Positions 15,146 through 40,234 of a stretch of DNA of 64,000 nt are shown here, one piece after another. Numbering within the stretch: position 1 is the first letter of the stretch; every line of letters starts with the position of its first letter. The notes under the pieces were generated by a model that was given only the letters and a program-made list of their open reading frames with translations, was not told the origin of the DNA and did no database searches. This DNA is from Alphaproteobacteria bacterium (GTDB taxonomy: Bacteria > Pseudomonadota > Alphaproteobacteria > Rickettsiales > SXRF01), in contig JBKDKX010000016.1 of NCBI GenBank assembly GCA_046344715.1, positions 4,194 to 68,193 of the forward strand, in the 5' to 3' direction. The translations under genes were made by a program, and so were the position numbers.

Positions 15146-15148
15146 TCA

Positions 15149-17407
15149 TTAGAAGTTTGCTTTCACTCCGGCATACGCCATCATAGGAGCTCCGGGGCGT
15201 AAACCTGCTGGTCTGCGCGCTGCCACATATACTTCATCCAGTACGTTGGTAACACTAACAAAAGGGCGGACACCGTTCATTGCTTCCATCTCAGCGTGTA
15301 GGTCGATTACAAAGCTGCCATCGGTGCTTTGGTTCTCAAGCAAAGGGCCACTTCCTGCCACAGTACGCATACGATCAACAAATTTAGCATTTGCACCGAT
15401 TGACCACGTCTTTGTTTCAATGCCTGCTGAAAGATTTACCTGATGTTTGGCAATGTAAGGCAGTTCAAAACCTTTGCTCACATTGCCCCATTCTGCGAAG
15501 GTACTGGTGAAGCTGTTCTGGAACTCAGCACGTGTATGCGTATAGCCGATTTTCACGGGCAGATGTGTTGATTTTAGAGAGGTGAGGCTGGAAAAATCAT
15601 AGCCGGCGGAGGCTTCAAGCCCCCATACATTGACTTCACCACCATTGAACTGGTCAGCACCGCTGCCGCCGGATGAGAACGTATCTGAACCCAGCAGGTT
15701 TTCATAATCGTTGAAAAAACCGATGGCTTCTGCCTTGAAGTTGCTTTTGGTGAAGCGCGCACCAGCCTCGTAATTTACGCTTTCTTCTGCACTGGAACTT
15801 TGTGTGGTGGTGTTGGATGGCGGCTCTGGTGGCGCGAAGCCTTTATGCACGCCAGCCAGTGCCTGCCATGATTTGCCGATGTCATATTCCAGCCCGATGC
15901 CAGGTACGAAAGCAGACACCACGCTGGCATATTTTTGCAGGTTGGCACCCGTGCGGCTTGGATCGGACGTACCAAAATTCTCGGTTTTCAGATCAACATA
16001 TTCATAGCGAAAACCCGGTGTTACCGCAAGATTACCAAATGCCATGCGGTTCTGGAAGAAGCCCGCCCATGCACTGGCGCTGCCGATGCGGTTATCCTGT
16101 GATCCGGGCGTACCTGCTGTTGTTAGCACCATGGTGCCATTTAACATCTGATAAATATCATCATGCTGGTAGCGATCCTGCTCATCCACATGATAACGCA
16201 GGCCGAATTCCACGTCGTTCCTGACACCAAACAGGTTAGTGCGGTAATTAGCCGCTGATTGTATGCCCTGACCATAATAATCGCGGATGTTGGCGCGCAC
16301 GGTAAGGCCATTGGCAGCACTGTTCCCGCCCTGCAATATGGCAAGATGTGCTGCGAATGTATTGGGATCGTTCAGTACGCTCGTAAGGCTCTGGTTTGTA
16401 CCGGAACGCACATTGTTTAGTTTGTACCAGTTGCGGTTGAAATCGTTGCGGTAAAGCGTGGTGGTGATGCTCATATCCTGCATTGGCTCGATATAATGTG
16501 AAAGCTGCACCTGATGATGGTAGCTATCCATGTTATCTTTTTGCGATGCGGCGTAACGGCGATACGGATTAGCGTTAAAGTCAGACGATGTAAGGCCAAG
16601 ATAGGTTTCATTAGAATCCTCATCGGTATAGCCCAGCTTTATTTCAAGCTCCTGATAATGCGTGCGGGATGGAGAAGTTTTATAGCGTCCTTTCAGCATG
16701 TAGTCAGACGCATTGAATCCGGTATCACCGCCCAGATAATCTGCTTTCTTAAATCCATCGCTGGATTCATGGTGAAATTCGGCGAGTATGCCGAAATTGC
16801 CGACATCGGTCAGAGCACTGGTGCCGGTATGGCCGCCGTAACGCAAGCCTGCATAAGAGCCAGCACTGAACGATATTTCACTGGCAGGAACATCCGGCAC
16901 CGCGCGTGTCAGGAGGTTGACTGCGCCGTTGGTAGTGCGCGGGCCAAATTTAATGGCGCTCGATCCTTTGCGCACTTCAATACCGGTCATACGTTCGCTG
17001 CGTGGGAAATAATAGGCTTCGGGTGCGGAGTAAGGGGCGGGTGCAATCAGCACACCATCTTCCATCAGTGTAATATCGGCGCTGCGGTCAATGCGGCCGC
17101 CGCGCATCCCAATATTCGGGCGCAGGCCAAAGCCATCTTCTTCCTGTACGTTAATGCCAGGCACTTGCTGTACGATGCGGTGAATATCAGTGCTTGCGGC
17201 TTTCTCCATCTGTTTTTCATCCACGTAATAACCTGAGCCTGGCAATGTTTTCACCGGATCCCAATAGCCTTTGGTGATGGTAAGCTGAAGAGGCAATATG
17301 CGACGGCTTTGGTCCAGTTTGCTTGGGGAAGGTGATTCCTGTGCGAAAGCAGGAGCCCCCGCCAATGCAGTGCATACAAAGAGACAAAAACGAGACGATA
17401 TAGACAT
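15149..17407 (-). CDS. TonB-dependent outer-membrane receptor
   Basis: Signal peptide MSISSRFCLFVCTALAGAPAFAQ, a plug region, a long beta-barrel and a C-terminal aromatic residue (KANF). Confidence 0.85.
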   Translation of the reverse strand: MSISSRFCLFVCTALAGAPAFAQESPSPSKLDQSRRILPLQLTITKGYWDPVKTLPGSGYYVDEKQMEKAASTDIHRIVQQVPGINVQEEDGFGLRPNIGMRGGRIDRSADITLMEDGVLIAPAPYSAPEAYYFPRSERMTGIEVRKGSSAIKFGPRTTNGAVNLLTRAVPDVPASEISFSAGSYAGLRYGGHTGTSALTDVGNFGILAEFHHESSDGFKKADYLGGDTGFNASDYMLKGRYKTSPSRTHYQELEIKLGYTDEDSNETYLGLTSSDFNANPYRRYAASQKDNMDSYHHQVQLSHYIEPMQDMSITTTLYRNDFNRNWYKLNNVRSGTNQSLTSVLNDPNTFAAHLAILQGGNSAANGLTVRANIRDYYGQGIQSAANYRTNLFGVRNDVEFGLRYHVDEQDRYQHDDIYQMLNGTMVLTTAGTPGSQDNRIGSASAWAGFFQNRMAFGNLAVTPGFRYEYVDLKTENFGTSDPSRTGANLQKYASVVSAFVPGIGLEYDIGKSWQALAGVHKGFAPPEPPSNTTTQSSSAEESVNYEAGARFTKSNFKAEAIGFFNDYENLLGSDTFSSGGSGADQFNGGEVNVWGLEASAGYDFSSLTSLKSTHLPVKIGYTHTRAEFQNSFTSTFAEWGNVSKGFELPYIAKHQVNLSAGIETKTWSIGANAKFVDRMRTVAGSGPLLENQSTDGSFVIDLHAEMEAMNGVRPFVSVTNVLDEVYVAARRPAGLRPGAPMMAYAGVKANF

Positions 17408-17500
17408 GTGATACCTGATATTAAGAATGATTTGCAATTGCAGCGTATGTATTGCAATCATCTTCACCTGTCAATTAGTAAATAGTTTTTGTGAGGCAAT

Positions 17501-17526
17501 AAAAAAACCGGCCATTTCTGGCCGGC
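17501..17526 (-). terminator. Rho-independent terminator
   Basis: Stem CCGGCC/GGCCGG followed by T7 on the minus strand. Confidence 0.6.
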
Positions 17527-17604
17527 TTTCTCATTTGACAATATTGAGTTGTGTTATGCTACTTTGTTAGCATGTGCGCTGAAAATGATGCGATTCTCAT
17601 AAAA

Positions 17605-18021
17605 TTAACGAGTAATTTGATGAGAAGGTCTGTCAGGAAATCTGTGTGGCCAGCCAATAATTTCCAAAAGATCTGTCTCGCCGGCGATATTATACAACTG
17701 GCCTCTTGGAATATTGCGTTCATTTCCCAGTTCCGTCATCCCCTCACGGGCGGCATAGCGACGAGCCGTAGCATCTAGGTCGTTCCGATAAAATAAACCA
17801 GTTGTACCAGGAATTTTCCTATCTATTTGTACATCTGGTCCTACATCGCCAGATGTTTCTATGATTTGGCTGGCCTCTCGTAAAAAGGAAACCCAATCAA
17901 TTGGCTTAAGATCACATCCATTCGCGTTGTGGTAGAACACAGCTATTTTACCACATTGCGGATTAGCGGGGTCTTGAAAATCCCGTAAGCGTGCCTCATT
18001 CGCCCATTTGAAACTAGGCAA
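17605..18021 (-). CDS. Hypothetical protein (TTG start; possibly the distal part of a frameshifted gene)
   Basis: ORF only. A 46-codon ORF (18014-18154) overlaps its start in another frame. Confidence 0.3.
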   Translation of the reverse strand: MPSFKWANEARLRDFQDPANPQCGKIAVFYHNANGCDLKPIDWVSFLREASQIIETSGDVGPDVQIDRKIPGTTGLFYRNDLDATARRYAAREGMTELGNERNIPRGQLYNIAGETDLLEIIGWPHRFPDRPSHQITR

Positions 18022-18160
18022 TTGATATTTGGATCAAACGATCAAGGGTTTGCGTTGTTCTAACACTGGCGTGTATTTTCCAGTTTGTTCTTCCAGAAAC
18101 TATACGCGCAGTTTCATATGTCATCCAGCGCGGGGTATCTTTGGAATCTGTCATGGCAAT

Positions 18161-18194
18161 AAAAAAAGCCCCAGCGTGAAGCTGGGGCTTTTTT
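18161..18194. terminator. Bidirectional rho-independent terminator downstream of ctrA
   Basis: Stem GCCCCAGC/GCTGGGGC flanked by A7 and T6. Confidence 0.65.
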
Positions 18195-18197
18195 AAG

Positions 18198-18917
18198 CTA
18201 GGCTACTTCGTTCGCATGTGCATCGGAAGAAACGCCACTTGCATCTGGGTCTTTTAGTACGTAGCCACGACCCCACACGGTTTCGATATAGTTATCGCCG
18301 CCAGCAGCAGTTGCCAGTTTCTTGCGGAGTTTGCACACGAATACGTCGATAATTTTGAGCTCTGGCTCATCAATGCCACCATAGAGGTGATTGAGGAACA
18401 TTTCCTTGGTAAGGGTGGTGCCTTTACGCAGGGAGAGCAACTCAAGGATAGAGTATTCCTTGCTGGTTAAGTGCAATGGCTTGCTGTCCACTTCGATAGA
18501 GCGGGTATCAAGGTTAACTGCCAGTTTGCCGGTGCGGATGATGGATTCAGAGTGTCCTTTAGAACGACGAACAATGGCCTGAATGCGGGCAATCAATTCA
18601 CCTTTATTGAAAGGCTTGGTGAGATAATCATCGGCGCCATAGCCAAGACCTTTGATTTTCTGGTCTGGGCCAGAGAGGCCAGAGAGAATAAGAATAGGGG
18701 TGGTAACACGGGCAGCGCGGAAGCGGCGCAGAACTTCATACCCATCAATATCCGGAAGCATGAGATCCAGAATGATGATGTCATAATCGTACAATTTACC
18801 AATTTCCAGACCTTCTTCACCCAGCTGGGTTGTATCACAGATGATACCCTCAGAAGCCAGTGACAGTTCAATCGCTTTCGCGGTCGAGGAATCATCTTCT
18901 ACCAGCAATACACGCAT
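18198..18917 (-). CDS. ctrA: Cell-cycle response regulator CtrA (OmpR family)
   Basis: [32 protein letters not shown] and a winged-helix C-terminus ending [13 protein letters not shown]. Very close to the canonical CtrA pattern. Confidence 0.9.
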
Positions 18918-25653: not shown

Positions 25654-25756
25654 GGAACAGATATAAACTAACCCAGTGATAGGGCAAGGGGGAAACGAAG
25701 TTTGGTGGTGTAGCTAAGCGGGATAAGATCAAGTCTGTTTGGTGAATTATTATTAG

Positions 25757-27235
25757 CTATGCAACTGATTGGAGTTGCGTTTTCCCAAAAGCATTGACGA
25801 TTTCATCTAAAAGAGCTGCAAAAGCAGCAAAATTTTCTTTTGTTTGGTTTTCACTTTTACGAACAAACTTTCTTAGCCCTTCCTTACCCTTTGCTCTTAA
25901 AGATTCATCAAACAGGTCTTCGATAGTTTTATTGTCTTCATCAGATATATACATGACTACTATATCATTTTTTGTGATTTTGTTTTTTAGCTCTGGGTCA
26001 TCGATTATTATTTGTGCATATTTCTTTCCATTATCAGTGTCAAACAAGGCAATGCTTTTGCTGTGACCAAAAGGAATTTTTATAAATTTAGGTATTGTTG
26101 ACGCACTGGTGCAAGGAAAAATATGTATTGGCTTAAAATCTTCTTTTCTTTCTAAAGCTCTAATAGCAATATTAATATATTCTGCGTCAATTCTGCCCTC
26201 AGTAAATACCACAAAACTTTTTTTGTTTTTTACCAAGAATTCTGCTTCTTCTGCCAACTGGTTTATATCTAATAAGCCGCTTGAAAGAACCTGAATAATT
26301 TCGCGATACTCTATATCTTTATCAATCTGCCCATCAGACATCCATACTATATCAGCTCCTAAATCTTTCCCAAAAGCCACAGTTGATGGATTATGAGTGG
26401 TCATGATTACTTGAACGCCTAAATCAACGAAATATTCTTTAATTACAGCGATAAATTTTTCGGCAATAGATGGGTTTAAATGAGCATCAAACTCATCAAC
26501 TAACAACACATCTGTTTTTTGGCGGCTAGAGTTTCCCCAAGTCCACAAAGCGAGCGCAAAAGCACCCCTCTCTCCAGAAGACAAATCCTTCATGTCTAAC
26601 CCAGTTTCATCAAGCTTGGATGGTAAAAATCTTAGGAATTTTAACCCGGACGCTAAATACATCCTGTCAACACGAATCAAAAGGCCAAAAGAATGCAATA
26701 TACGATCTATTCTATCCCATGGCTGTTCATCGTCTTTATTAGCTGGCAACAGATCATTTATATTAAACGTTTGCTGGTACGCCTCCGCTTTATCAAGCTC
26801 TTTTCTAAGGGCTGATATATTATTTTGAAATTTTATCCGTTCTTCAATAATCCCGTGAATTATTGAGTAATCTAATTGGCTAAAGAGTTTATTCGCGTTG
26901 AACCAAGTTTTATCATTAGTCAAATCCTGAGAGGTGTTATTCTCCTTATGAACTGCAATACACTTCTCATCACTATTTTCTAGTTTGTGTGTAAAGCCGT
27001 TTGCGATTTCATTCGCATATTTTTTATCGGGAGAGCGATAATTTACATCAATGTATCTAATTAGGTTTTTGCTCTGATACTCTTTTGAGCCATGAATATA
27101 GTCCAGCAGCTTTGTTTTTCCGCTGCCATTTATACCAGTAATGATTGAAAAAGGCTGAATTTCTTGCCATGCAAAATCTTTGTCAGCAAAGAAACCTTTG
27201 TCATCTGTAATTTTAATTTCTGAAATTTTGACCAT
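25757..27235 (-). CDS. ABC-type ATPase fused to a TOPRIM/DUF4435-like domain (OLD-family or fused PARIS-like defence candidate)
   Basis: Walker A GINGSGKT, signature LSSGER, Walker B LLVDEFDAHL and H-loop TTHNP. The C-terminal part has FTEGRIDAEY (TOPRIM Glu) and LFDTDNG (DxD). The gene is visibly more AT-rich than its flanks. Confidence 0.75.
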   Translation of the reverse strand: MVKISEIKITDDKGFFADKDFAWQEIQPFSIITGINGSGKTKLLDYIHGSKEYQSKNLIRYIDVNYRSPDKKYANEIANGFTHKLENSDEKCIAVHKENNTSQDLTNDKTWFNANKLFSQLDYSIIHGIIEERIKFQNNISALRKELDKAEAYQQTFNINDLLPANKDDEQPWDRIDRILHSFGLLIRVDRMYLASGLKFLRFLPSKLDETGLDMKDLSSGERGAFALALWTWGNSSRQKTDVLLVDEFDAHLNPSIAEKFIAVIKEYFVDLGVQVIMTTHNPSTVAFGKDLGADIVWMSDGQIDKDIEYREIIQVLSSGLLDINQLAEEAEFLVKNKKSFVVFTEGRIDAEYINIAIRALERKEDFKPIHIFPCTSASTIPKFIKIPFGHSKSIALFDTDNGKKYAQIIIDDPELKNKITKNDIVVMYISDEDNKTIEDLFDESLRAKGKEGLRKFVRKSENQTKENFAAFAALLDEIVNAFGKTQLQSVA

Positions 27236-27304
27236 AGCGAAATTAAACCATCTAATTCTTAGAATTTATAACAGAAAGCTGCTCGAAAACAAACTGTGTC
27301 AAAA

Positions 27305-27320
27305 TGGAGCATAGGAGAGT
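27305..27320. repeat. Distal att-like direct repeat, a copy of the tRNA-Ala 3' end
   Basis: TGGAGCATAGGAGAGT is identical to 40162-40177 inside the tRNA-Ala gene. Confidence 0.6.
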
Positions 27321-27453
27321 GATTCGCGGTGTTTTAACACCGCTCACCCTTCGGGCGTGCTTCGCACGTCCAAGCTTTGTCTCGGCTGCGCCTCGCAAAG
27401 TCTTGTCGAACTCTACTCGTTCGACTGCCTATATTTCCGCACCATTAAAAATG

Positions 27454-27510
27454 GCCGCGCAAGGCGGCTTTTTTAAATGGTGGTCGGTAGCGGACTGGAT
27501 TCGAACTGTT
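27454..27510 (-). other. Orphan tRNA-like 3' fragment followed by a terminator hairpin
   Basis: The minus strand reads TTCGAATCCAGTCCGCTACCGACCA, then GCCGCCTTGCGCGGC plus a T-run. The 5' half of the T stem and the rest of a tRNA are missing. Confidence 0.35.
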
Positions 27511-27623
27511 CGGACAAATTATTAGAAGCAATTCAACGCTCCAGCAAGTTGTTCGACTCCGTTATAGACAGTGGTGTAACGAACCAAAATTCGGCATCTT
27601 TTTCGGTAGCGGCGTGATGCGAA

Positions 27624-27899: not shown

Positions 27900-29297
27900 T
27901 CAGGAAGAGAGGCTTTTTACAGGAACTGCCGCTGCTGGTTTGGGTGTCGTCTTATAGTAAGACTCAATGATATGGGACATGGTTTCTAAAACCGGCTTGA
28001 AATTTAGGAAGTCTATTGAGTCCTGCGTCTGACGCACAATTTTTGTTGCCAATACCTGTTTTGAGTAATGCTTTTGGTTATCGAATTTTTTGCCGTTCTC
28101 CGCTGAGAAAGTTTTACCTTCCAGCACAGTTGCGGTGACCGATGGATTAAAGAAATCTTCAATTTTATTTTTCACCGTGTCTGTCGGCTTAGGCAATAGC
28201 ATGACGTATAAATTGGAAATGACGTGATATACGAAATTGCTATTCTGATCGTAGGTAACGCCATCTTTTTTGAAATTATTGCTCAGGAGGTCTATCACCT
28301 TTTTGGCTTCGTCATCATTATCCAGCAGAACAATCACGGGATGTGATCGAGTCTGAAATTTGAATGTCGTGCTTTTCGTATAATGTTCAATGAAGTTTTT
28401 TTGTGCCGGGGCTCCATCATGGATTCTCATTACTTCACTGACTCGCCGCGTAAATGGGAAGAAATCGACTGCATGTGGGAATGTGAATGCATTCTTCTTC
28501 GCTAACTGCTTGATGGCAGCTTTGAGGTAGATATTGTCGGTCTTGCCTTCGCATAAAATGAGTGGCCGTTCCAGCGCCACAAAATAGCGAAAATAGAGGA
28601 ATTTAGAATACAGTTCTGTTGCTGCATCCAGTTTAGGCCGTTCTTTGCCCTTTGCATTTTCCATCACTTTTTTACGGAGAGTGAGTTCATCTGTAGTGCG
28701 GCTGAATTCTTTAATGAAGTGAATGTGACTCAGGATGCCTTCGAGTTGTCTGAGAGATGTAGGTTTGTCGCTGCCGGGACGGAAGAAAGAACCCAGCGTG
28801 AATAGCGCATGACACATCGAGCGTGCGTAACGGTAATACTCGCTTTTTATGTTCACTTTTCTATTAACGACGAGGCCTGTAACCATCTGCCGGGATGGGC
28901 GAAACTGGAGGCGTGTTTTCGCCGGATTTATATTGAAACCAGAGTGTTTGATAATGCCTTCGATTTCGCTGCTAACCATCCATTGATTGGGCTTATCGGA
29001 TGGCGTAGCTAGTTTTTCAGGGAATGCCTTCTGATTCGTGGAAAATGTAATGTCATCTGCATAGCGCGAGTATGTGCAGCCATATTTTTTTGCCCGTTGT
29101 GTTAGGCGGACATCGAGAATATGCGTGATGAGATTTGTGATGACTGGTGAGCATGGACTACCTTGCGGCAGTTCATTTTGATGACATGTGACGGTCAAGA
29201 AAAACGCTTTGCAAGGCTTGCTGGCTGGTTGTTGGTTGCCCCGCAATAGTAAGCTGCGGTTTCTCGACATAGCGGTCTGTGCCACTGCATGCGCCAA
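27900..29297 (-). CDS. Reverse transcriptase-TOPRIM fusion, 5'-truncated (probable remnant)
   Basis: RT motif B LPQGSPCSP and motif C YADDITF are present, with a C-terminal TOPRIM (LCEGKTDN, LLDNDDE). The frame opens only ~45 aa before LPQG. An in-frame stop lies at 29307-29309, so the finger motifs and the motif A Asp are absent. Confidence 0.7.
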   Translation of the reverse strand: MAHAVAQTAMSRNRSLLLRGNQQPASKPCKAFFLTVTCHQNELPQGSPCSPVITNLITHILDVRLTQRAKKYGCTYSRYADDITFSTNQKAFPEKLATPSDKPNQWMVSSEIEGIIKHSGFNINPAKTRLQFRPSRQMVTGLVVNRKVNIKSEYYRYARSMCHALFTLGSFFRPGSDKPTSLRQLEGILSHIHFIKEFSRTTDELTLRKKVMENAKGKERPKLDAATELYSKFLYFRYFVALERPLILCEGKTDNIYLKAAIKQLAKKNAFTFPHAVDFFPFTRRVSEVMRIHDGAPAQKNFIEHYTKSTTFKFQTRSHPVIVLLDNDDEAKKVIDLLSNNFKKDGVTYDQNSNFVYHVISNLYVMLLPKPTDTVKNKIEDFFNPSVTATVLEGKTFSAENGKKFDNQKHYSKQVLATKIVRQTQDSIDFLNFKPVLETMSHIIESYYKTTPKPAAAVPVKSLSS

Positions 29298-29339: not shown

Positions 29340-29771
29340 TCATTGGGATACCCTCACTTCTATCGTTTGAGATTCTTTGACTTCAATTTTCCCTTCATCA
29401 AATGTTGGAGCACGGAAGCTGGGACGAATATTGTTTGATACGCCCCAATCTTCGGTGGGCATGCCTACAAAATTGGTATCAGTAGTTTTGTTTCCGTTGA
29501 GATCATGTGCAACTGCAACAGCATATGTTCCGGGTTGAATATTTTCGAATACACATTCAACACCGGATTGCTTTGCTGCAATCCACATCTGCTTCACGCT
29601 GCTTTCATTTTTCGGATTCATCGGGAATGTAGACGCTTCAGAGTGAAGCCCACATCCGATCATTCCATCGTTTGATTTTACGTCTTTGACGCTCACACGC
29701 AAATCAAGTGCATAGCAGGGCACGCTAAGTAGAGTGAAAGAGATGCCCATTAATACTAGTCTATTTTTCAT
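29340..29771 (-). CDS. DUF2141 family exported protein
   Basis: Signal peptide and the pattern GTYAVAVAHDLNGN..D.NF.GMPTE.WG.SNN. Confidence 0.7.
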   Translation of the reverse strand: MKNRLVLMGISFTLLSVPCYALDLRVSVKDVKSNDGMIGCGLHSEASTFPMNPKNESSVKQMWIAAKQSGVECVFENIQPGTYAVAVAHDLNGNKTTDTNFVGMPTEDWGVSNNIRPSFRAPTFDEGKIEVKESQTIEVRVSQ

Positions 29772-29938
29772 TGTATTTTCTCCTTTTGGTTGATTTGTAA
29801 TTTCATCTCATCAATCTGCTTTTGCAGATGATCGATACGCTCATGCACATAATCATGTGGCGAATAGTCACAGGCTTCTGCCCATGACGACATCCACGCG
29901 CTAAATTTTTGCATGCGTATTTTTAGGTTACTCAGCAT
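29768..29938 (-). CDS. Small coiled-coil ORF (56 aa), translationally coupled on both sides
   Basis: Its ATG lies inside the OMF stop region, and its TGA overlaps the DUF2141 ATG (ATGA). It is too short to appear in the ORF track. Confidence 0.4.
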   Translation of the reverse strand: MLSNLKIRMQKFSAWMSSWAEACDYSPHDYVHERIDHLQKQIDEMKLQINQKEKIQ

Positions 29939-31328
29939 CAATTGCCTCCCCGCTGTTGATGGTTGTTTTGCCTGAAACGCTCGTTCCCAATGCTTTATTC
30001 AGGCGCACATAGGCAATCGCAGCGGCGGTTTTGCGGTCGATATAAAGCAAGGTGGCTTGGTTCAGTTCGCTCTGAGCCGTGGTCACATCTGTCATGTCAG
30101 TCAGACCGCGCTTGAACCGCTCCGATGCAAGGATTACAGTATCTTTTCGGTGATCGAGCGCGCGTTTCTGTTCATCCGCTGCGCTGATACCATTTAAGTA
30201 ATCCGAAAGGGCGGATTTTGTTTCCTGCAATGCAGTGAGGCTGGCATTCTGATACGATAATGAAGCTGCATTCGCTCGTGCATCCGATGTGTCAATGGCT
30301 CCTTGTAACCTGCCAAAGTTCAGTAAGGGCGCGGTGACGCCAGATGCCAGCGACCAGATGGGATTGCTTGCTATCGGCACATTGCCAGAGCCATCTTGAA
30401 CGCCGAAGAAGCTGCGAATGCTGATGCGCGGCCATAGATCAGCCTCTGCTTTAGCTAAATCGGCTTGCGTGGCTAAAAGATCGGCACGGCTGGCACGAAT
30501 ATCAGGACGTGAGCGAACGCTATCTAGCGATATACTAAGCGCGGTATTTGCTTCTGGAATGACGAGTTCACCTTTTGTGCTTTTAAGGCTATCAGCGAGT
30601 GTGCCAGATTCTTTGCCAAGTAAACGCTCGATTTTATATTGTGCGGTATCAAGTGCAGCTTGCGCGATAGGCAGTCGTGTAGCCGTTTGGGATCGTTCCG
30701 CCTCAGCGCGGCTGAGGAATGTTGCATCAATCAACCCCGCTTTGGCACGTGCGGCAATCAGCGCAACCTGTTCATCCTGAATTGCTAATAAATCATTGGT
30801 TTTCGCAACAGTCTGTTCAGCTTGTCTCCATTCAATCACACTACGCATCAGTTCAGCGATAACGGAATTCGTTACATCCTCTGCGCTTGCAATGCGTGAT
30901 TCAACTCTGCGCTCCGCGCCATCCACTAAGGCCTGCGTCTGTCCAAATACATCGATTTCCCACGTTGCATCAAACCCGCCTTGAGCGATGGATAGTGGCT
31001 TATCAAAGCCAATTTGCCTGTTTCCGCGTGATGCGCTGGCCGATCCTGAGATGTCAGGGAAGAAACCAGAATTTGCCATGCGTGCAACGCCTCGCGCCTC
31101 TGCAATGCGCGTTTGTGCGATTTGAATATCAAGATTCTGCGCTAGTAAATCCTGAACCAGATTATCCATCAGCGGATCATTAAACGATTGCCACCATCGG
31201 TTTTGCTCTGTGATCTGCAATGCCTCAATCACGGGCTTTTCTGATACAGGGTACATCGCCTGTATTTGGGCGCAGGAACAAAGGACAAATGCAGTGCTAC
31301 AGCACAGTAAAAAGCGAACCGGCGTCAT
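29928..31328 (-). CDS. Outer-membrane efflux lipoprotein (NodT/TolC family)
   Basis: Lipobox LCSC and two OEP-type repeats; 466 aa. Confidence 0.85.
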   Translation of the reverse strand: MTPVRFLLCCSTAFVLCSCAQIQAMYPVSEKPVIEALQITEQNRWWQSFNDPLMDNLVQDLLAQNLDIQIAQTRIAEARGVARMANSGFFPDISGSASASRGNRQIGFDKPLSIAQGGFDATWEIDVFGQTQALVDGAERRVESRIASAEDVTNSVIAELMRSVIEWRQAEQTVAKTNDLLAIQDEQVALIAARAKAGLIDATFLSRAEAERSQTATRLPIAQAALDTAQYKIERLLGKESGTLADSLKSTKGELVIPEANTALSISLDSVRSRPDIRASRADLLATQADLAKAEADLWPRISIRSFFGVQDGSGNVPIASNPIWSLASGVTAPLLNFGRLQGAIDTSDARANAASLSYQNASLTALQETKSALSDYLNGISAADEQKRALDHRKDTVILASERFKRGLTDMTDVTTAQSELNQATLLYIDRKTAAAIAYVRLNKALGTSVSGKTTINSGEAIDAE

Positions 31329-32239
31329 TTGGCCTCCGTTTTTTGACTGTCGATAAACACATCCATCTGCCCACCCACGAAAATGGCTGGGGTGTTTTCA
31401 GGCAGAGCATAAATCACCTGCAACACACGCGTATCAACACGCTGACCTGCAACAGCAAGGTTCTGCTTTGGTTTTACATAAGGCTCAAACCGCACAAAGC
31501 TGAGTGGCACAGCATTGCCAGTATCGCCTCTGCGTAATCCTTGCGCCTGACTTTCGGGGCGAATATGCGCGGCGTTTTCCTCATCAATTTCTACACGTAC
31601 ATGCAACGTGCTGACGTCCCCCATCCGCATGAGTGGCTGGGGGGGTGAGCCAGCGCTGGCGAACTCTCCGGGGCGTACATTGACTTCAAGCACTTGCCCA
31701 TCAATCGGCGCTTTTACCACAAGTCGTTCTTTTGTGATTTTTGCCTGATTTAATTGCGCTTTGATTTCTTCAATACGAACAACTGCCAACTCTTTACCGA
31801 ATTTGCGACGATTAAAATCGTCTTTAGCGACTGCTCGCTTATCTTGCATTCCACTCACAATCGCAAACTGTGCGCTGGCATCTGCCGCTTGCACTTTTGC
31901 GGCATCTAAGCTGCGTTCCAACGTTGCAATCTGTGCATCAATGTCGCGCTGATCGAGTGCAAAAAGCACCGTGCCTTTCTTTACGCTATCACCAACTTTG
32001 ACCGGCACATCACGCACCACACCGGCCAGCTCCACACCAATCGAAATCAGCTCACTTTTCGGCTCAACAACGCCAATCCCTGAAGTTGATTCTGCATAAT
32101 CGGCTTTGGGCGGCGCAATGGGCGGCACTTTCACCTCTGGTTTTGCACCGCCAAACACGGTGATAAGTGCAAAAGCAATTCCCGCAAGCGCGACGTAGGG
32201 AAGTTTCCAACGCAGAAATAATGACTTTGTTTTTTTCAT
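31325..32239 (-). CDS. HlyD/MacA-family periplasmic adaptor
   Basis: N-terminal anchor, coiled-coil hairpin and beta-barrel pattern. Overlaps both neighbouring genes. Confidence 0.85.
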   Translation of the reverse strand: MKKTKSLFLRWKLPYVALAGIAFALITVFGGAKPEVKVPPIAPPKADYAESTSGIGVVEPKSELISIGVELAGVVRDVPVKVGDSVKKGTVLFALDQRDIDAQIATLERSLDAAKVQAADASAQFAIVSGMQDKRAVAKDDFNRRKFGKELAVVRIEEIKAQLNQAKITKERLVVKAPIDGQVLEVNVRPGEFASAGSPPQPLMRMGDVSTLHVRVEIDEENAAHIRPESQAQGLRRGDTGNAVPLSFVRFEPYVKPKQNLAVAGQRVDTRVLQVIYALPENTPAIFVGGQMDVFIDSQKTEAK

Positions 32240-32949
32240 AGCTTCTCCTTTTGGATGAATTCAGCGGCGGCAAAATCACCGACAATGCGTCCATCGTTCA
32301 TTTCTAAAATGCGGTCAGCGAAGTGATAAATGCGGTTATCGTGAGTAACGATCAGCACCGCCCGATTTTTATCATTGGCAATTTCGCGCAGAATCTGCAT
32401 CACGGCTTGGCCTGTTTTCCCATCCAGTGCAGCAGTCGGTTCATCGCACACAATCAGTTTGGGGTTATGAACCAGCGCCCGTGCAATCGCCACACGCTGC
32501 TGCTGCCCCCCCGATAATTGGCGTGGTAGTTTTTCGGTTTGGCCTTCCATACCAATCTGCTCTAGCAACTGCCTTGCCTGATCTGCTGCTTGTGCGTCTG
32601 GCATTCCAGCAGCAATCAACGGCATAGCGGCATTTTCCGCAGCGGTAAGTGCTGGCAGCAAATTATATTGCTGAAAAATAAACCCGATAGAGTGGCGACG
32701 AAACAATACTTTCTCGCGGTCACTCATCTGACTCAGGCGATTTCCAAGAATATCAATCTCGCCATCCGTTGCTGATAGAATGCCAGAAATGATTGAAATC
32801 AGCGTGGTTTTTCCGCAGCCCGATGGTCCCACCAGCATGGTAAGTTCACCCATGCGAAGCTCAGCGTTGATGTCGTGCAAAACGCGTAAACGTTCAGCAT
32901 CAACTGGAAAATCTTTAACTACATTGGTAATGGTGGCGGCAATTTGCAT
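32236..32949 (-). CDS. ABC transporter ATP-binding protein (MacB/LolD/DevA type)
   Basis: [24 protein letters not shown] and IVCDEPT motifs. Confidence 0.9.
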   Translation of the reverse strand: MQIAATITNVVKDFPVDAERLRVLHDINAELRMGELTMLVGPSGCGKTTLISIISGILSATDGEIDILGNRLSQMSDREKVLFRRHSIGFIFQQYNLLPALTAAENAAMPLIAAGMPDAQAADQARQLLEQIGMEGQTEKLPRQLSGGQQQRVAIARALVHNPKLIVCDEPTAALDGKTGQAVMQILREIANDKNRAVLIVTHDNRIYHFADRILEMNDGRIVGDFAAAEFIQKEKL

Positions 32950-32951
32950 GG

Positions 32952-34091
32952 CTACCCCCGAAACACAATGGCTGGATCAAGGCGGAATACCTTGCGAAGG
33001 CTGAATAGAATCGATAAAATAATGATGATGGTAATCGCCACAAAGCTACCCAGCATCACCTGCCAATAGAGGTAAAACCCTTTTAGGGCTGGAGCGTCAT
33101 TTGTCAGTTCAAAAAAGGCGGCAGTGCTGCCAATTCCGATGCCGTAGCCAATAAGTCCGACAATCGATGCTTGGATTAACACCAGCTTGAGCAACTGGCT
33201 ATTGGTCACACCAACCGCTTTCATCGCCGCGAATTGTTTAAGATTCTCCACCACAAAAATATAGAAGGTTTGCGCGGTGATAGCGGCACCCACAAGCGCA
33301 CCAAGTATCACCGTAATCCCGAAATTGATGGGAATACCTGTGCGCTCCAAAATGTAATTGATGCTGCGCCATGCAAATTCATTATTCGTCAGTGCTTGCA
33401 AACCCGTTTGATCGGTGATGCGCTTTTTTAGCTCTTCAATGTTTTCTCCCTGTTTCGCCTTCACCAAAATGAAAGGCAGCTTATTGCGCTGTGGCGGGGT
33501 GATCTCAATCGCCGTATTGTATGAAACATACATGATGGGGAAGGTGAAAAATGTCGGCTTGGTTTCGCATATTGCATTCACCACCAAGCGATTATCATTG
33601 AGCTCGATGTGCCTTCCCAGTTCGACTTTCTTGCCCGGCCATGTGAAATAATAGCCATTCACATCCATCATGGCGGTTTGTGGTTTCCGGATAACAGCTG
33701 GGTCACCCATCATTTTGTCCGGGCAGATTCCCACTAAGCTCACATCATCCACGCCAATAAGCTGCACCTGCTGCGTCAACCCGTCCTGCATGCGGATGGT
33801 GGAAATACCTTTATAGAACGGCACAGCCCACTCAATGCCTTTTACCGAACGCACATTGGAAAGCTCGATATCGCGCATAGGTTCTACTTCCTCAATGTAG
33901 CGCACGCGACTATCCATCACCCAAATATCTGGCTCAGTAACTGCGTATATCGCCCCAGCGGTACGTGCCATCAGGCCGATGAAAATCGATACTTGCTGCG
34001 CCATGAGCATGGTCGCAAACGTCACGCCAAAGACCAGCCCGATATACTTGGCACGATCCCCTAGAAGCATTTTGATGGCGATGTTTCTCAT
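32952..34091 (-). CDS. ABC transporter permease, FtsX/DevC-like
   Basis: An N-terminal TM, a large periplasmic domain and three C-terminal TMs. Confidence 0.8.
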   Translation of the reverse strand: MRNIAIKMLLGDRAKYIGLVFGVTFATMLMAQQVSIFIGLMARTAGAIYAVTEPDIWVMDSRVRYIEEVEPMRDIELSNVRSVKGIEWAVPFYKGISTIRMQDGLTQQVQLIGVDDVSLVGICPDKMMGDPAVIRKPQTAMMDVNGYYFTWPGKKVELGRHIELNDNRLVVNAICETKPTFFTFPIMYVSYNTAIEITPPQRNKLPFILVKAKQGENIEELKKRITDQTGLQALTNNEFAWRSINYILERTGIPINFGITVILGALVGAAITAQTFYIFVVENLKQFAAMKAVGVTNSQLLKLVLIQASIVGLIGYGIGIGSTAAFFELTNDAPALKGFYLYWQVMLGSFVAITIIIILSILFSLRKVFRLDPAIVFRG

Positions 34092-34163
34092 AAGTCTTGA
34101 TATTAATTGTACGATATGGTACTAATAATATAGCTATTTATAAAACGGTCAAGTACTATATTT

Positions 34164-34811
34164 ATGGGTCAAATGACAACAGCACAAAAACGTGGGCGCG
34201 GAAGGCCAGTGAATGAGGCCAGACGTGAGGAAATTATTGCGACAGCGGGAAGGCTATTTGGTGAGCTGGGGCTGCACGCCACCACGATGGAACACATCGC
34301 CAAGGAATTAAAAATCTCAAAGATTACGCTCTATTCGCGCTTTGCCGATAAGGATGAACTGTTCACCGCAGTCATTCAGGCAAAATGTCAGCAACACATT
34401 CCCGACCAGTTTTTTGGTGATGTTGACAAACATCCTATGGAGGAATCCCTCTATCGTGTCGCATACGGCCTGATGGAGCTGCTTACCAGTGATGGTGCGA
34501 TGGATATGGAGCGCATGCTGACGGGCGCGGATGCTAGGGTGAGATCAAAGCTCACCACGCTTTTTTATGAAGCGGGTCCACAGCGTATAAAGCGCATGGC
34601 AGCCGCTCATCTTGAAAAACTTCATGCTGAGAAAAAGCTAAATGTCCCGAATCCAAAATTCTCGGCCAATCTGTTCGCAGCGATGATCAAAGGGTCGGAC
34701 ATTTGTATGCGTGCGCACATGCAGATTCCGCCTAAGACAACCAAAAAAGAAATGCAAACCTACTGCCGCGATGCGGTGGGGATGTTCATCAACGCACACC
34801 AAATTCAATAA
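34164..34811 (+). CDS. TetR-family transcriptional regulator
   Basis: HTH TMEHIAKELKISKITLYSRF. Divergent from the efflux operon. Confidence 0.85.
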   Translation: MGQMTTAQKRGRGRPVNEARREEIIATAGRLFGELGLHATTMEHIAKELKISKITLYSRFADKDELFTAVIQAKCQQHIPDQFFGDVDKHPMEESLYRVAYGLMELLTSDGAMDMERMLTGADARVRSKLTTLFYEAGPQRIKRMAAAHLEKLHAEKKLNVPNPKFSANLFAAMIKGSDICMRAHMQIPPKTTKKEMQTYCRDAVGMFINAHQIQ

Positions 34812-34934
34812 ACGAATAAACAAGGAATTATCGAGCGATAACTGAAGACAAAATAACTGTGTCCAACAATACAACCCAGCGGTGTTTTATAATGAAATGA
34901 TAACTGCTTATAATTGAATAAAGGCAGGTAAAGT

Positions 34935-35663
34935 ATGGTTTTTCATGATAAAACATACGACCGATTACACAATCTTTGGAGAAGATGGAGAATCTCTCAG
35001 GAGGATGTTTACTACGCCGTGGAAAACGATTTGCTTAAAGTCGTTGTCTGGATGCCGCTGCGCTTGATGGAGCGCGGCACTATCAGAAAAGAAAAGTTTA
35101 TCTATGAACAGCACGAACCCAAAGAAGGATTTATCGGAGTTAGGCCTGTGGATTTCAGACGGCTATGCAGCACAGGCAGAGCAAAGCTGCGCATATTTCG
35201 ATCTATTGATGATGAAGCGCATATTTTGAGGCTGGCTTATGAACCGCCACAACCTGCAATCATGGTGCGGATAAGTGATCTCGTTGTGTTGCAGAAAGAT
35301 AGGGTGAAGTTTGAAGCAAAGTACGATTTGCCAAAGAATATGGCTGCACCTTCAAAACAAAAATTGACCGCCAATGGCTTTCGTTTTTCAAACGATTATC
35401 GCCATGTTCTATTGAATGGGCATGAATATCACCTTGGTGATGTCCAAGCCAGAATCGTGGAGTTGCTTCATGATGCAGCAAGCAGTCGTCATCCGTGGGT
35501 ACATGGTAAAACGCTGATTTATGAATCAGGGTCACAGGCGCTTCGGATGCGCGACATATTCAAGCACAAGCGGGACTGGCGCAACCTCATTACCTCGAAT
35601 GATCGCGGCTATTACCGGCTGAATATACCCATTGAGGAAGAAATCTTAGAACCCGCTGATTAG
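34935..35663 (+). CDS. Hypothetical protein
   Basis: ORF only. Confidence 0.35.
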   Translation: MVFHDKTYDRLHNLWRRWRISQEDVYYAVENDLLKVVVWMPLRLMERGTIRKEKFIYEQHEPKEGFIGVRPVDFRRLCSTGRAKLRIFRSIDDEAHILRLAYEPPQPAIMVRISDLVVLQKDRVKFEAKYDLPKNMAAPSKQKLTANGFRFSNDYRHVLLNGHEYHLGDVQARIVELLHDAASSRHPWVHGKTLIYESGSQALRMRDIFKHKRDWRNLITSNDRGYYRLNIPIEEEILEPAD

Positions 35664-36007
35664 TGAACGCGGCGCAGAAAACAAAGCAAGGCTTCTCTGC
35701 CTTCCTTGTCGAGTTTCTTGAATTGCTTCAGCAGCTCGAATTCATTCTCTTTTATTTCTGGTATCAGCTCGGATTTCTGCTCAGGTACAAAATAGGAGAT
35801 GGGCAAATCCAAAATCTTGGCGATTTTTAGCAAGAGTTCCACCGAGATGCGGTTAATTGCTTGCTCATATTTTTGTAGCTGTTGGAAAGTGATCGGCTCT
35901 TTGATTTTCTGGCTGAGTTCTTTTTGCGTGAGGCCACGCAGCATGCGGCCTTTACGGATTTGATTGCCGATGTAAACGCTTGTAGGATTTTTGCCTTTAT
36001 CAATCAC
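35660..36007 (-). CDS. XRE-family HTH regulator of the island
   Basis: LRGLTQKELSQKIKEPITFQQLQKYEQAINRIS. The likely start is a GTG at 36007 with a GAGG RBS; the ORF track extends to a TTG at 36073. Confidence 0.7.
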   Translation of the reverse strand: MIDKGKNPTSVYIGNQIRKGRMLRGLTQKELSQKIKEPITFQQLQKYEQAINRISVELLLKIAKILDLPISYFVPEQKSELIPEIKENEFELLKQFKKLDKEGREALLCFLRRVH

Positions 36008-36251
36008 ATTACCTCGCTCAATCCATGACGAGGTTTTTGACACCCGAAGGTGCCAGGAGGTTAGTAAGCCCAAAACCGGCTGCGACCTATTTCCACGAGG
36101 GTATTATATTCAGCCGCCCTCCCGACATAAGTCGAGGAGGGACGTTTCGTGAATACGAGTCCTTCAGCGCATGTTTTGAGGGTTACTACACCCCGTCACA
36201 GCACGGTGAACATAGAGCATACGCTCAAAACATCAACTCATTGATTGCCTT

Positions 36252-36364
36252 CCCCCTTTCAGCCCCACCCAAGGTCACCCCAGCGCCCCACCCAAGGTTG
36301 TTGACGCGGGAAATTTGCTATTTTCATGGCCACATACAACCCCCTTTGCGCCCCACCCAAGGTC
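36252..36364. promoter_or_regulatory. Iteron/operator-like direct repeats, 3 x CCCCACCCAAGGT
   Basis: Copies lie at 36263-36275, 36286-36298 and 36351-36363. The first and third extend to a ~25-bp repeat, CCCCCTTTnnGCCCCACCCAAGGTC. Confidence 0.5.
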
Positions 36365-36455
36365 TATCCAAGCCCCACGCCAGCCCCCCATATCGTCGTG
36401 CAGCCTTTGTCCGAACAGTTCGAGCAACGAACCGTTTTAACCAACGGAGGCACAC

Positions 36456-36695
36456 ATGAATGACAATACAAAACCTATCTCAACTTTTGATGAAATATGC
36501 CGTCTGACCATCGACACGATGCGGAAGATGGAACTGGAAACCTTGCTCCAGTTGAAGAAGCAAGCAGCCGTGGAATTAGACCGTGCCAAGCTCACCAAGG
36601 GCTGCATCGAATTGGCGCTTTCCCTGAAGCAGGAAGATCAGGAACGCATCCCTGAACAGGCCGATGACGGGCAACAGAGCCTGCTCGATGAATAG
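36456..36695 (+). CDS. Small hypothetical protein (island module)
   Basis: ORF with a GGAGG RBS, followed closely by the next gene. Confidence 0.35.
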   Translation: MNDNTKPISTFDEICRLTIDTMRKMELETLLQLKKQAAVELDRAKLTKGCIELALSLKQEDQERIPEQADDGQQSLLDE

Positions 36696-36703
36696 TTCAG
36701 ATC

Positions 36704-38634: not shown

Positions 38635-40234
<1,600 letters not shown>

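What the first reader, a model, noticed from the sequence alone, without database searches (positions are those of the whole stretch)
25757..27235. Stand-alone ABC-ATPase-TOPRIM gene in an AT-rich pocket beside a tRNA integration hot spot
The single 492-aa protein combines a complete ABC/SMC-type ATPase set with a C-terminal TOPRIM/DUF4435-like domain. The ATPase set comprises Walker A, LSSGER, Walker B and the H-loop. The TOPRIM-like domain has FTEGRID and a DTD triad.

This is the architecture of OLD-family nucleases and of fused AriA-AriB (PARIS-like) anti-phage systems. The gene is noticeably more AT-rich than its neighbours. It lies between the conserved backbone and the distal att remnant of the tRNA-Ala island. 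A degenerate tRNA-end-like sequence (GTTTGGTGG at 25700-25708, matching the junction at 40156-40164) may mark an older att copy, which would suggest stepwise island accretion.
Basis: partly seen in the sequence, partly recalled or inferred. Interest (0 to 1): 0.65.

Follow-up and report, generated by a model that had tools for sequence, protein, structure and literature searches.

The report
Single-gene ATPase–TOPRIM nuclease defence cassette
This is an intact, horizontally acquired gene for a compact ABC-ATPase fused to a TOPRIM nuclease, an OLD-like protein that most likely defends against phage, sitting where a decayed prophage meets the chromosome; it is an uncharacterised member of a well-known kind, not a new kind of system.

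Summary
The N-terminal 320 aa are an ABC/SMC-type ATPase. The C-terminal 150 aa are a TOPRIM nuclease domain. This rests on profile-profile comparison: 98.7% probability against retron type I-C (Eco2) TOPRIM and 99.2% against OLD-like TOPRIM. Structure search alone was weak.

The gene is the most AT-rich stretch of the window (35.2% GC against 47.8%). It is missing from the same site in two close relatives. It lies just outside the distal att copy of a decayed serine-recombinase prophage inserted at tRNA-Ala.

Homologues are rare, about 20 clusters in 1.84 billion representatives. They have no conserved partner gene. They sit in tRNA-linked islands, integrative elements or beside restriction-modification genes.

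It is unrelated in function to this gene.

Best reading: a stand-alone ("Class 1-like") OLD-family abortive-infection nuclease whose TOPRIM is as close to the Eco2 tRNase module as to classical OLD. PARIS, AbiL, Gabija and retron I-B membership are not supported. Interest is moderate to low.

The parts
25757..27235 (-). Complete gene for the 492-aa ABC-ATPase-TOPRIM protein
   Evidence: ORF. Its 25 homologues are 482-540 aa and align end to end. The identical protein is found on 4 metagenome contigs.
26276..27235 (-). ABC/SMC-type ATPase domain (aa 1-320). It carries Walker A (27113-27136), the LSSGE signature (26570-26584), Walker B/D-loop (26480-26512) and the H-loop His281 (26393-26395). 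A helical insert spans aa ~110-182.
   Evidence: Pfam AAA_21 4e-15, AAA_15 6e-13, SMC_N 1.5e-11. Foldseek top hits are SMC/Rad50 heads, TsOLD 6p74, GajA and Ec83 PtuA. Motifs verified. The helices at 117-137, 140-156 and 172-182 are in the AF2 model.
25760..26224 (-). TOPRIM nuclease domain (aa 338-492). Predicted catalytic residues: E346 and D350 (26186-26200), D399 and D401 (26033-26041), E439 (25919-25921), K451 (25883-25885).
   Evidence: Domain-only hhalign. PADLOC RT-Toprim_I-C models at 4e-5 to 4e-4. NCBIfam retron_Ec67_fus at 9e-4. AF2 pLDDT 92.5. Conservation.
25697..27440 (.). 1.74-kb segment (el2 plus the gene) present here but replaced by a 26-nt linker in relatives L010 and L025
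   Evidence: blastn of L010 and L025 against the window. Sequences read. Alignment A4.
27305..27440 (-). el2: the GC-rich (55%) right-end att arm of the prophage family. It ends in a 16-nt copy of the tRNA-Ala 3' end (27305-27320).
   Evidence: 16-mer unique to the two sites. Homologous element in L020, where it precedes a different cargo gene. GC.
25700..25708 (+). GTTTGGTGG (CCACCAAAC on the - strand): a short att-like remnant at the proximal boundary of the cassette
   Evidence: weak on its own. It lies 4 nt from the homology break with L010/L025. The same CCACCAAAC occurs at the prophage end in the window (40156-40164) and in L020.
27441..27593 (-). el1: conserved non-coding element plus intrinsic terminator, immediately upstream of the cassette
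   Evidence: 90-91% identical in L010, L020 and L025. Terminator found. No Rfam match.
27900..29297 (-). Neighbour, not part of the system: a 5'-truncated retron type I-C (Ec67/Eco2 family) RT-TOPRIM gene
   Evidence: PADLOC RT-Toprim_I-C 7e-140, covering profile positions 158-560 of 568. NCBIfam retron_Ec67_fus covering positions 154-572 of 572.
40159..40234 (-). tRNA-Ala(GGC), the integration site of the decayed prophage. Its 3' end is overlapped by the large serine recombinase ORF 38634-40208 (+).
   Evidence: ARAGORN. Rfam 61 bits. Resolvase, Recombinase and Zn_ribbon_recom domains.

Best explanation
The gene encodes a self-contained, single-polypeptide OLD-like immunity nuclease. An N-terminal ABC ATPase acts as sensor and switch. 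It probably dimerises through its helical insert. A C-terminal two-metal TOPRIM nuclease acts as effector.

It arrived by horizontal transfer as a one-gene cassette. It now sits at the junction between a decayed tRNA-Ala prophage and the chromosome.

By analogy with P2 OLD, retron Eco2, PARIS and Gabija, the resting oligomer is probably closed. A phage-derived cue (an aberrant nucleic-acid structure or a phage protein) together with ATP binding or hydrolysis would release the TOPRIM site. The nuclease would then cut host and phage nucleic acid and abort the infection. tRNA/RNA is slightly favoured as the substrate over DNA, because of the closeness to the Eco2 module.

Shown: the domain identities, the intact catalytic residues, the lack of a partner gene, and the accessory, island-borne distribution.

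Inferred: the defence role, the trigger, the oligomeric switch and the substrate.
For: Architecture:
- ATPase hits.
- Full-length hhalign to 600-aa proteins bearing OLD-like TOPRIM: E 3e-62 over aa 4-489.
- Domain-only hhalign of the C-terminus to retron I-C TOPRIM (98.7%) and to OLD-like TOPRIM (99.2%).
- Full-length Foldseek hits to TsOLD 6p74 (E 7e-7) and GajA 8sm3 (E 4.8e-6).

Catalytic set:
- E346, D399 and E439 are invariant. D401 and K451 are conserved in at least 90% of members. D350 is kept in 22 of the 25 aligned sequences, by reading.
- These residues align with the E, D, DxD, E and K positions that are mutationally essential in Eco2 (PMC12405507, PMC12916289). The motif type is EGxxD plus DxD, as in type I-C (PMC7736814).

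No partner gene:
- Seven independent loci share no neighbouring gene.

Accessory and mobile character:
- Absent at the same site in L010 and L025.
- A GmrSD-type gene occupies the equivalent slot after el2 in L020.
- GC is 12.6 points below the window average. In homologue loci the gene is 4-9 points below its flanks.
- Three homologue loci lie next to tRNA-Ser.
- Neighbours include integrases, ICE T4SS genes, restriction-modification genes, Fic, a Schlafen-like ATPase and a DUF1016 nuclease.

Precedent:
- Single-gene OLD proteins defend on their own, and P2 OLD and Eco2 cut tRNA (PMC12445682, PMC12916289, PMC12392090, bioRxiv 10.64898/2026.07.10.737580).
Against: - There are no functional data of any kind. 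No RNA-seq run could be found.
- Structure search with the C-terminal domain alone is weak. Best E is 1.5e-3, to lumazine synthase. OLD TOPRIM entries score 4e-3 to 2e-2. Viral TOPRIM primases score E>0.04.
- This protein's own score against Pfam OLD-like_TOPRIM is below threshold: 13.6 bits against a cut-off of 23.2.
- Neither the sequence nor the family profile finds any characterised OLD, GajA or AriB in the PDB at E<=1.
- No homologue is found in the phage collection.
- At least one OLD-family ATPase (archaeal Cran1, PMC12796447) is not a defence protein.
Confidence: 0.6

Rival explanations
1. The gene is the effector of the adjacent retron. The RT-TOPRIM remnant and this ATPase-TOPRIM would once have formed a type I-B-like retron (a Class 3 OLD).
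For: The retron RT-TOPRIM gene lies only 660 nt upstream on the same strand. The protein also hits the PADLOC ATPase-Toprim_I-B model at 6e-10. The best PDB sequence match is the retron Ec83 ATPase.
Against: - The RT is type I-C, which is a single-gene retron (PMC7736814).
- The RT is truncated and has no ncRNA.
- Between the two genes lie a phage ORF, the el1 terminator and the prophage att arm el2.
- None of the six homologue loci has an RT nearby.
- The two TOPRIM domains in the window share only 21% identity.
Confidence: 0.03
2. The gene is a fused PARIS (AriA-AriB) or fused AbiL (AbiLi-AbiLii) system.
For: The ATPase part gives its best PADLOC scores to AbiLi (2.6e-18) and AriA (4.3e-16). 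The fused AriAB model matches aa 213-364. One distant relative, P0084, carries Pfam DUF4435.
Against: - The C-terminal domain alone hits no AriB, AbiLii or DUF4435 model, even at E<=10. It hits only the five RT-Toprim_I-C models.
- The AriAB match stops before the nuclease domain.
- AriA in the PDB scores only E~0.6 against the family profile.
- These ATPase models cross-hit widely: 81 PADLOC families match this protein.
Confidence: 0.1
3. The protein is not an immune protein. It would be an element-maintenance or DNA-metabolism factor, for example an addiction module, a RecF/SMC-like repair protein or a partition protein. Alternatively the gene is on its way to decay.
For: - The ABC ATPases of the SMC/Rad50/RecF clade are the closest folds.
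- An archaeal OLD-family protein acts in the cell cycle (PMC12796447).
- No expression data are available.
- No clear sigma-70 promoter was found upstream.
Against: - The distribution is sporadic, rare and island-borne.
- The neighbours are defence and mobile genes.
- All catalytic residues are conserved across 36-65% identical homologues, which argues for purifying selection on both activities.
- The gene is intact and identical in metagenomes from several studies and years.
Confidence: 0.17

Closest known systems
Class 1 (single-gene) OLD family nucleases: P2 Old, Thermus scotoductus OLD (6P74), E. coli YbjD, Vibrio cholerae Class 1 OLD
   Same: An N-terminal ABC ATPase with a helical insert, plus a C-terminal TOPRIM carrying the E / DxD / E / K set. 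It is a stand-alone gene without a partner. It is carried on islands or prophage-linked DNA. Foldseek aligns the whole length to 6p74.
   Different: It is about 60-100 aa shorter, going by the 512 residues Foldseek reports for the 6p74 chain and by its own ~560-680-aa relatives. Sequence similarity to the characterised members is undetectable with HMMER against the PDB. The TOPRIM has the EGxxD motif IV of retron I-C and is below the Pfam OLD-like_TOPRIM threshold.
Retron type I-C (Retron-Eco2/Ec67) RT-TOPRIM
   Same: The whole 150-aa nuclease module is homologous: core TOPRIM, IEDxF, K..FA and the C-terminal nF..F..LL..I helix (hhalign 98.7%). I-C models are the only PADLOC and NCBIfam hits for the isolated domain. 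Eco2's TOPRIM is a tRNase (PMC12916289).
   Different: The module is fused to an ABC ATPase, not to a reverse transcriptase. There is no ncRNA or msDNA cage, so regulation must work differently.
Unnamed ~600-aa ABC-ATPase/OLD-like-TOPRIM proteins (e.g. P0033, P0043 of Helicobacter enhydrae, P0064)
   Same: They are homologous over the full length (hhalign E 3e-62). They sit in defence-island contexts beside type IIG restriction-modification, RhuM and McrB genes.
   Different: They have longer inserts in both domains. Identity is 25-35%. They reach the Pfam OLD-like_TOPRIM model.
PARIS (AriA/AriB), AbiL (AbiLi/AbiLii), Gabija GajA, retron I-B (Eco8) OLD
   Same: They share the general logic of an ABC-ATPase sensor coupled to a TOPRIM nuclease. 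The ATPase models cross-hit.
   Different: There is no DUF4435-type nuclease domain. There is no GajB helicase neighbour. There is no functional RT or ncRNA partner.

Membership tests
OLD family (ABC ATPase-TOPRIM nucleases, broad sense) | N-terminal ABC ATPase with Walker A, signature, Walker B and H-loop | tested here: met
   GINGSGKT, LSSGE, LLVDEFD and H281, all invariant in the family.
OLD family (ABC ATPase-TOPRIM nucleases, broad sense) | C-terminal TOPRIM with an invariant Glu, DxD and second-metal/Lys residues | tested here: met
   hhalign of the isolated domain gives 99.2% against OLD-like TOPRIM and 98.7% against I-C TOPRIM. E346, D350, D399, D401, E439 and K451 are conserved. Caveat: this protein's own Pfam PF20469 score is 13.6 bits against a 23.2-bit cut-off, and Foldseek on the isolated domain is weak.
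OLD family (ABC ATPase-TOPRIM nucleases, broad sense) | Dimerisation domain inserted in the ATPase, and an oligomeric assembly | tested here: inconclusive
   The AF2 monomer shows a helical insert at aa ~110-182. No multimer prediction or experiment was possible.
OLD family (ABC ATPase-TOPRIM nucleases, broad sense) | ATP hydrolysis and metal-dependent nuclease activity | not testable with these tools
   This needs biochemistry.
Class 1 OLD | Single gene with no conserved helicase, RT or other partner | tested here: met
   Seven loci share no neighbour. The 1.74-kb insert has no room for a second gene.
Class 2 OLD / Gabija | Adjacent UvrD/PcrA-like helicase GajB | tested here: not met
   No helicase is present in any of the loci. 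The PADLOC GajA hit covers only the Walker B region.
Class 3 OLD / retron type I-B | Adjacent retron RT plus msr-msd ncRNA | tested here: not met
   The only RT nearby is a truncated type I-C gene, separated from this one by a terminator and an att arm. Homologue loci have no RT.
PARIS (including fused AriAB) | AriB-type DUF4435 TOPRIM nuclease | tested here: not met
   The C-terminal domain gives no AriB hit in PADLOC at E<=10. No family member hits DUF4435 among the top Pfam families.
AbiL | AbiLi ATPase together with AbiLii | tested here: not met
   AbiLi matches aa 25-300 only. There is no AbiLii hit for the C-terminus and no second gene.
Retron type I-C (Eco2) | Reverse transcriptase fused to the TOPRIM, with an upstream ncRNA | tested here: not met
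   This protein has no RVT domain. Only the nuclease module is shared.

The most novel reading that the evidence does not exclude
This small clade may be a distinct, uncharacterised class of OLD-like proteins. In it, the Eco2-type tRNase TOPRIM module, so far studied as a fusion to a retron reverse transcriptase and caged by msDNA, would instead be governed by an ABC ATPase. If so, it would be a minimal stand-alone tRNA-cutting abortive-infection system. It would also be an evolutionary bridge between retron I-C nucleases and classical OLD nucleases.
Probability: 0.3. Interest if true: 0.5.

Novelty: new member of a known kind. Interest (0 to 1): 0.33.

Why it matters
ABC-ATPase/TOPRIM proteins are among the most widespread immune effectors (OLD, Gabija, PARIS, retron I-B). 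It is still unclear what single-gene versions sense and what they cut. At 492 aa this family is unusually compact. Its nuclease is about as close to the Eco2 tRNase module as to OLD. That makes it a convenient minimal model for asking how an ABC ATPase gates a TOPRIM nuclease, and whether substrate choice (tRNA or DNA) follows TOPRIM lineage. The locus also gives a clean natural example of different defence genes (this gene here, a GmrSD-type gene in a relative) lying beside the same prophage att arm. None of this overturns current understanding.

Tried and rejected
(1) Retron partnership. I considered this because the next gene is a retron RT-TOPRIM. I rejected it because the RT is type I-C, truncated and separated by a terminator and an att arm, and because homologues never have an RT nearby.

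(2) DUF4435, PARIS or AbiL identity of the C-terminus. There was no hit.

(3) Foldseek on the isolated C-terminal model, against the PDB and viral libraries. Only weak hits came back. Lumazine synthase ranks slightly above OLD TOPRIM, and TOPRIM primases have E>0.04. It is not decisive alone, so I relied on profile-profile comparison.

(4) el1 as a tRNA, tmRNA or known sRNA. ARAGORN and Rfam found nothing. Its fold z-score is only -1.65.

(5) Polarising insertion against deletion.
- The genome scan found only one close relative (L010). Three others share no synteny.
- The metagenome pattern scan added L020.
- DUF2333 homologues added L025. More distant relatives have different synteny, tsf-DUF2333-pyrH.
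- The 26-nt linker in L010/L025 aligns loosely with the first 30 nt of el2. This hints at deletion in those relatives but does not settle it.

(6) Excision or empty-site joints in metagenome contigs. None were seen. The contigs are short and low in depth.

(7) Expression evidence. No RNA runs were available.

(8) Phage and plasmid collections. There is no phage hit, and only partial ATPase-only plasmid hits.
Full report
**Observation**

An ATG-initiated ORF of 492 codons lies at 25757..27235 on the minus strand.
- Walker A GINGSGKT
- ABC signature LSSGE
- Walker B/D-loop DVLLVDEFDAH
- H-loop His281
- EGRID
- DTD

A search of 5.8 billion proteins found 27 close homologues (36-65% identity, 480-540 aa) and a tail of more distant ~600-aa relatives. 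In an alignment of 25 family members these residues are invariant: the Walker A, the signature, D247/E248, H281, E346, D399 and I438-E439. D401 and K451 are conserved in at least 90% of members. The ORF is therefore a real gene under selection, not a chance reading frame.

The gene has 35.2% GC (GC3 30%) in a window averaging 47.8%. It ranks second lowest of 1251 windows of the same size.

**Domain identity**

*The ATPase*
- Pfam places aa 1-300 in AAA_21, AAA_15 and SMC_N.
- The AlphaFold2 model built on the family alignment is confident (pLDDT 86.6).
- Its best PDB matches are SMC, cohesin and Rad50 heads. Full-length alignments to the Thermus scotoductus OLD nuclease 6p74 (E 7e-7) and to GajA 8sm3 (E 4.8e-6) follow, along with the retron Ec83/Eco7 PtuA ATPases.

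*The C-terminal 150 aa*

No Pfam model matches above threshold, so I tested this domain in several ways.
- (a) NCBIfam matches the TOPRIM part of the retron Ec67 fusion model (E 9e-4).
- (b) In PADLOC the isolated domain hits only the five RT-Toprim_I-C models (4e-5 to 4e-4). It hits no AriB, AbiLii or GajA model.
- (c) Scanned member by member, 12 of 25 homologues touch Pfam OLD-like_TOPRIM (best 1.2e-4) and 7 touch Toprim_2.
- (d) Profile-profile comparison of the whole family with 11 relatives of ~600 aa that carry Pfam OLD-like_TOPRIM gives E 3e-62 over aa 4-489. The TEG, DxD and IEDLF motifs are in register.
- (e) I cut out the C-terminal columns only and compared them with a profile of 26 retron I-C TOPRIM regions, built from the neighbouring gene's homologues. 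This gives 98.7% probability, E 2.4e-16. Against the C-terminal part of the OLD-like relatives it gives 99.2%, E 1.6e-19. The I-C and OLD-like profiles match each other less well (96.3%, E 2e-9), so this family sits between them.
- (f) A separate AF2 model of the domain (pLDDT 92.5) has four parallel strands alternating with helices. E346 follows strand 1 and D399-x-D401 follows strand 3. From my own knowledge of Aravind et al. 1998, that is the TOPRIM arrangement.
- (g) Foldseek on that model is weak. Lumazine synthase scores 1.5e-3 and class 2 OLD TOPRIM domains (6nk8, 6njx, 6njw) score 4e-3 to 2e-2. In the viral library, TOPRIM primases and an RloB-like protein score E 0.05-0.13. I count the structure search as consistent but not decisive.

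*Catalytic residues*

The motif type is EGxxD plus DxD. Mestre et al. list that signature for type I-C retron TOPRIMs, whereas I-B1 has EDxxL and I-B2 has EGxxE (PMC7736814).

For Eco2, the essential residues are E374, D460 and D462 (metal A), D378, S513 and E515 (metal B), and K562 (PMC12405507; PMC12916289). Through the alignment these correspond to E346, D399, D401, D350, T437, E439 and K451 here. The last assignment goes through the I-C profile, not through the Eco2 sequence itself, so it is an inference.

**Is there a partner gene?**

I read the neighbourhoods of six further homologues. No neighbour is shared. What recurs is the kind of neighbourhood:
- a P4-type integrase and AlpA next to tRNA-Ser (L005)
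- a Fic-MerR gene, a second AAA_15 ATPase with a D12 methyltransferase, and a GIY-YIG gene downstream of tRNA-Ser (L006, L014)
- an ICE with T4SS genes, an S24 repressor, a Schlafen/AlbA_2 ATPase, an integrase and type I restriction-modification genes (L015)
- methyltransferases, a ThaI endonuclease and TraG (L017)
- a DUF1016/YhcG nuclease (L018)

In every locus the gene is 4-9 GC points below its flanks.

The ~600-aa relative in Helicobacter enhydrae lies 24 nt downstream of a type IIG restriction-modification enzyme, next to RhuM and near McrB.

An exhaustive profile search of 1.84 billion cluster representatives finds about 20 representatives of the close family. It finds 163 at E<1e-30 and 1845 at E<1e-10. 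The clade is rare, inside a large superfamily.

No homologue is present in 50,697 phage records. Only partial ATPase-only matches occur in plasmids.

**The locus**

*The organism.* It is an uncultured freshwater alphaproteobacterium. Its MAGs are labelled Rickettsiales or Alphaproteobacteria.

*The prophage.* Downstream of tRNA-Ala(GGC) (40159-40234, minus strand) lies a decayed prophage. Its parts are:
- a large serine recombinase whose ORF overlaps the tRNA 3' end
- a DUF6362/phrog_6836 gene
- a replication-initiation gene
- an HTH_3 repressor
- after an efflux operon, a retron type I-C RT-TOPRIM gene that lacks its first ~153 profile positions and its ncRNA (27900-29297)
- a small phage protein, phrog_13590
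- a conserved non-coding element with a terminator (el1, 27441-27593)
- a GC-rich arm (el2, 27305-27440) that ends in a perfect 16-nt copy of the tRNA-Ala 3' end

The ATPase-TOPRIM gene starts 69 nt beyond that copy, just outside the prophage's distal att.

*The relatives.* Three relatives bear on the site's history.
- L010 (DUF2333 protein 97% identical) and L025 (95%) both read el1, terminator, a 26-nt linker, then DUF2333. They have no el2 and no ATPase gene. Homology to the window stops at 27441 and resumes at 25696.
- L020 has el1, terminator and el2. Its el2 ends ...TATGCTCCACCA, and its hairpin differs compensatorily. A GmrSD_N (DUF262) gene then sits where the ATPase gene sits here.

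It is identical to the first bases of the recombinase-side prophage end, both here (40156-40164) and in L020. Taken together, the two sequences flanking the gene...ACTCTCCTATGCTCCA and CCACCAAAC..., reconstitute 22 nt of the tRNA-Ala/prophage junction with CCA shared between them. The 9-mer alone is not significant. Its placement at an independently defined boundary is, on my rough estimate of 30 positions x 4^-9, a chance of about 1e-4.

*What this does and does not settle.* I could not decide between two histories:
- (i) An older tRNA-Ala island carrying the ATPase gene was pushed distally when the prophage integrated.
- (ii) The gene was inserted into attR later.

A third possibility bears on the relatives rather than on these two. 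L010 and L025 may have lost el2 and the gene by deletion, since the linker aligns loosely with the start of el2.

Contigs from metagenomes of at least eight studies carry the same junctions, with no alternative joints.

**Mechanism**

The following is shown:
- a complete ABC ATPase and a complete two-metal TOPRIM site in one polypeptide
- no partner gene
- an accessory, island-borne distribution

The following is inferred from characterised relatives. P2 OLD is an inactive tetramer that opens on sensing DNA structures and then cuts tRNA (bioRxiv 10.64898/2026.07.10.737580; PMC12445682). Eco2's TOPRIM cuts tRNA once its msDNA cage is removed (PMC12916289). GajA and the Eco8 OLD cut DNA (PMC10568477; PMC12887533). 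I therefore propose an ATP-gated abortive-infection nuclease.

I give about 0.9 to the architecture, about 0.6 to a defence role, and about 0.35 to tRNA/RNA as the substrate.

**Comparison and novelty**

By the context-based OLD classification (PMC10568477), the gene behaves as Class 1, a single gene.

It differs from the characterised Class 1 proteins in several ways:
- It is shorter.
- It has no detectable HMMER similarity to them in the PDB.
- Its TOPRIM is as near to the retron I-C lineage as to OLD.

PARIS, AbiL, Gabija and retron I-B membership each fail a defining feature; the membership table gives the details.

The finding is an uncharacterised member of a known kind. It is worth a bench test as a minimal ATPase-TOPRIM system, but it is not surprising to a specialist.

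Noticed in passing
window 27900-29297 (-): A 5'-truncated retron type I-C (Ec67/Eco2 family) RT-TOPRIM gene. Only profile positions ~154-572 remain. The YADD motif and the TOPRIM EGKTD and DND motifs are intact. The first ~150 codons and the msr/msd ncRNA are gone. The remnant abuts a DUF2141 operon at ~29190.
   Followed up: partly
window 27441-27593 (-); L010 5032-5184; L020 5076-5227; L025 2793-2915: A conserved ~120-150-nt non-coding element (el1) that ends ...GTTCGAATCCAGTCCGCTACCGACCACCA and is followed by a strong intrinsic terminator. It is 90-91% identical across four genomes, while the DNA on both sides varies. It has no Rfam, tRNA or tmRNA match. It may be an unknown sRNA, or part of the prophage's right arm.
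   Followed up: partly
window 27305-27440 (-); L020 5227-5342: el2, a GC-rich (55%) element shared with L020. It contains a hairpin that changes compensatorily (gcggtg..caccgc against ggcc..ggcc) and ends in a copy of the tRNA-Ala 3' end. It is probably the P arm of the serine-recombinase attP. In L020 it is followed by a GmrSD_N/DUF262 gene, not the ATPase gene.
   Followed up: partly
window 34900-40234: A decayed prophage at tRNA-Ala(GGC). It has a large serine recombinase (38634-40208) whose 3' end overlaps the tRNA on the opposite strand, a DUF6362/phrog_6836 gene, a replication-initiation protein with a DnaA_N domain, and an HTH_3 repressor. In L020 the recombinase's last ~180 codons are fused to a tail-protein-Z gene.
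   Followed up: partly
window 29340-34811: A TetR regulator, a MacAB-like ABC efflux system (FtsX, ABC, membrane-fusion protein), an outer-membrane factor, DUF2141 and a 56-aa lipoprotein-like ORF. They sit between the two prophage-derived blocks. Whether this is backbone or cargo is unclear.
   Followed up: no
window 36044-36126 (-): A sub-threshold Rfam match to sRNA-Xcc1 (36.4 bits against a gathering score of 53, E 0.003) inside the prophage remnant.
   Followed up: no
window 15120-18199: About 3 kb present here but absent from the syntenic region of relative L010. From the gene calls of L001, it holds a TonB-dependent receptor and a 138-aa ORF.
   Followed up: no
L005 13267-13356; L006 5863-5952; L014 3081-3170: Three homologue loci place the gene in islands directly beside tRNA-Ser(TGA). 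In L006 and L014 a Fic-MerR gene lies immediately upstream, in apparent operon arrangement.
   Followed up: partly
L026 1141-6803 (Helicobacter enhydrae CP016503): The ~600-aa relative P0043 starts 24 nt after a 1278-aa type IIG restriction-modification enzyme and is followed by RhuM. A McrB-like gene is nearby. This hints that the larger relatives may work with restriction-modification systems. The window protein also gave a weak TIGR04435 restriction-associated AAA hit.
   Followed up: no
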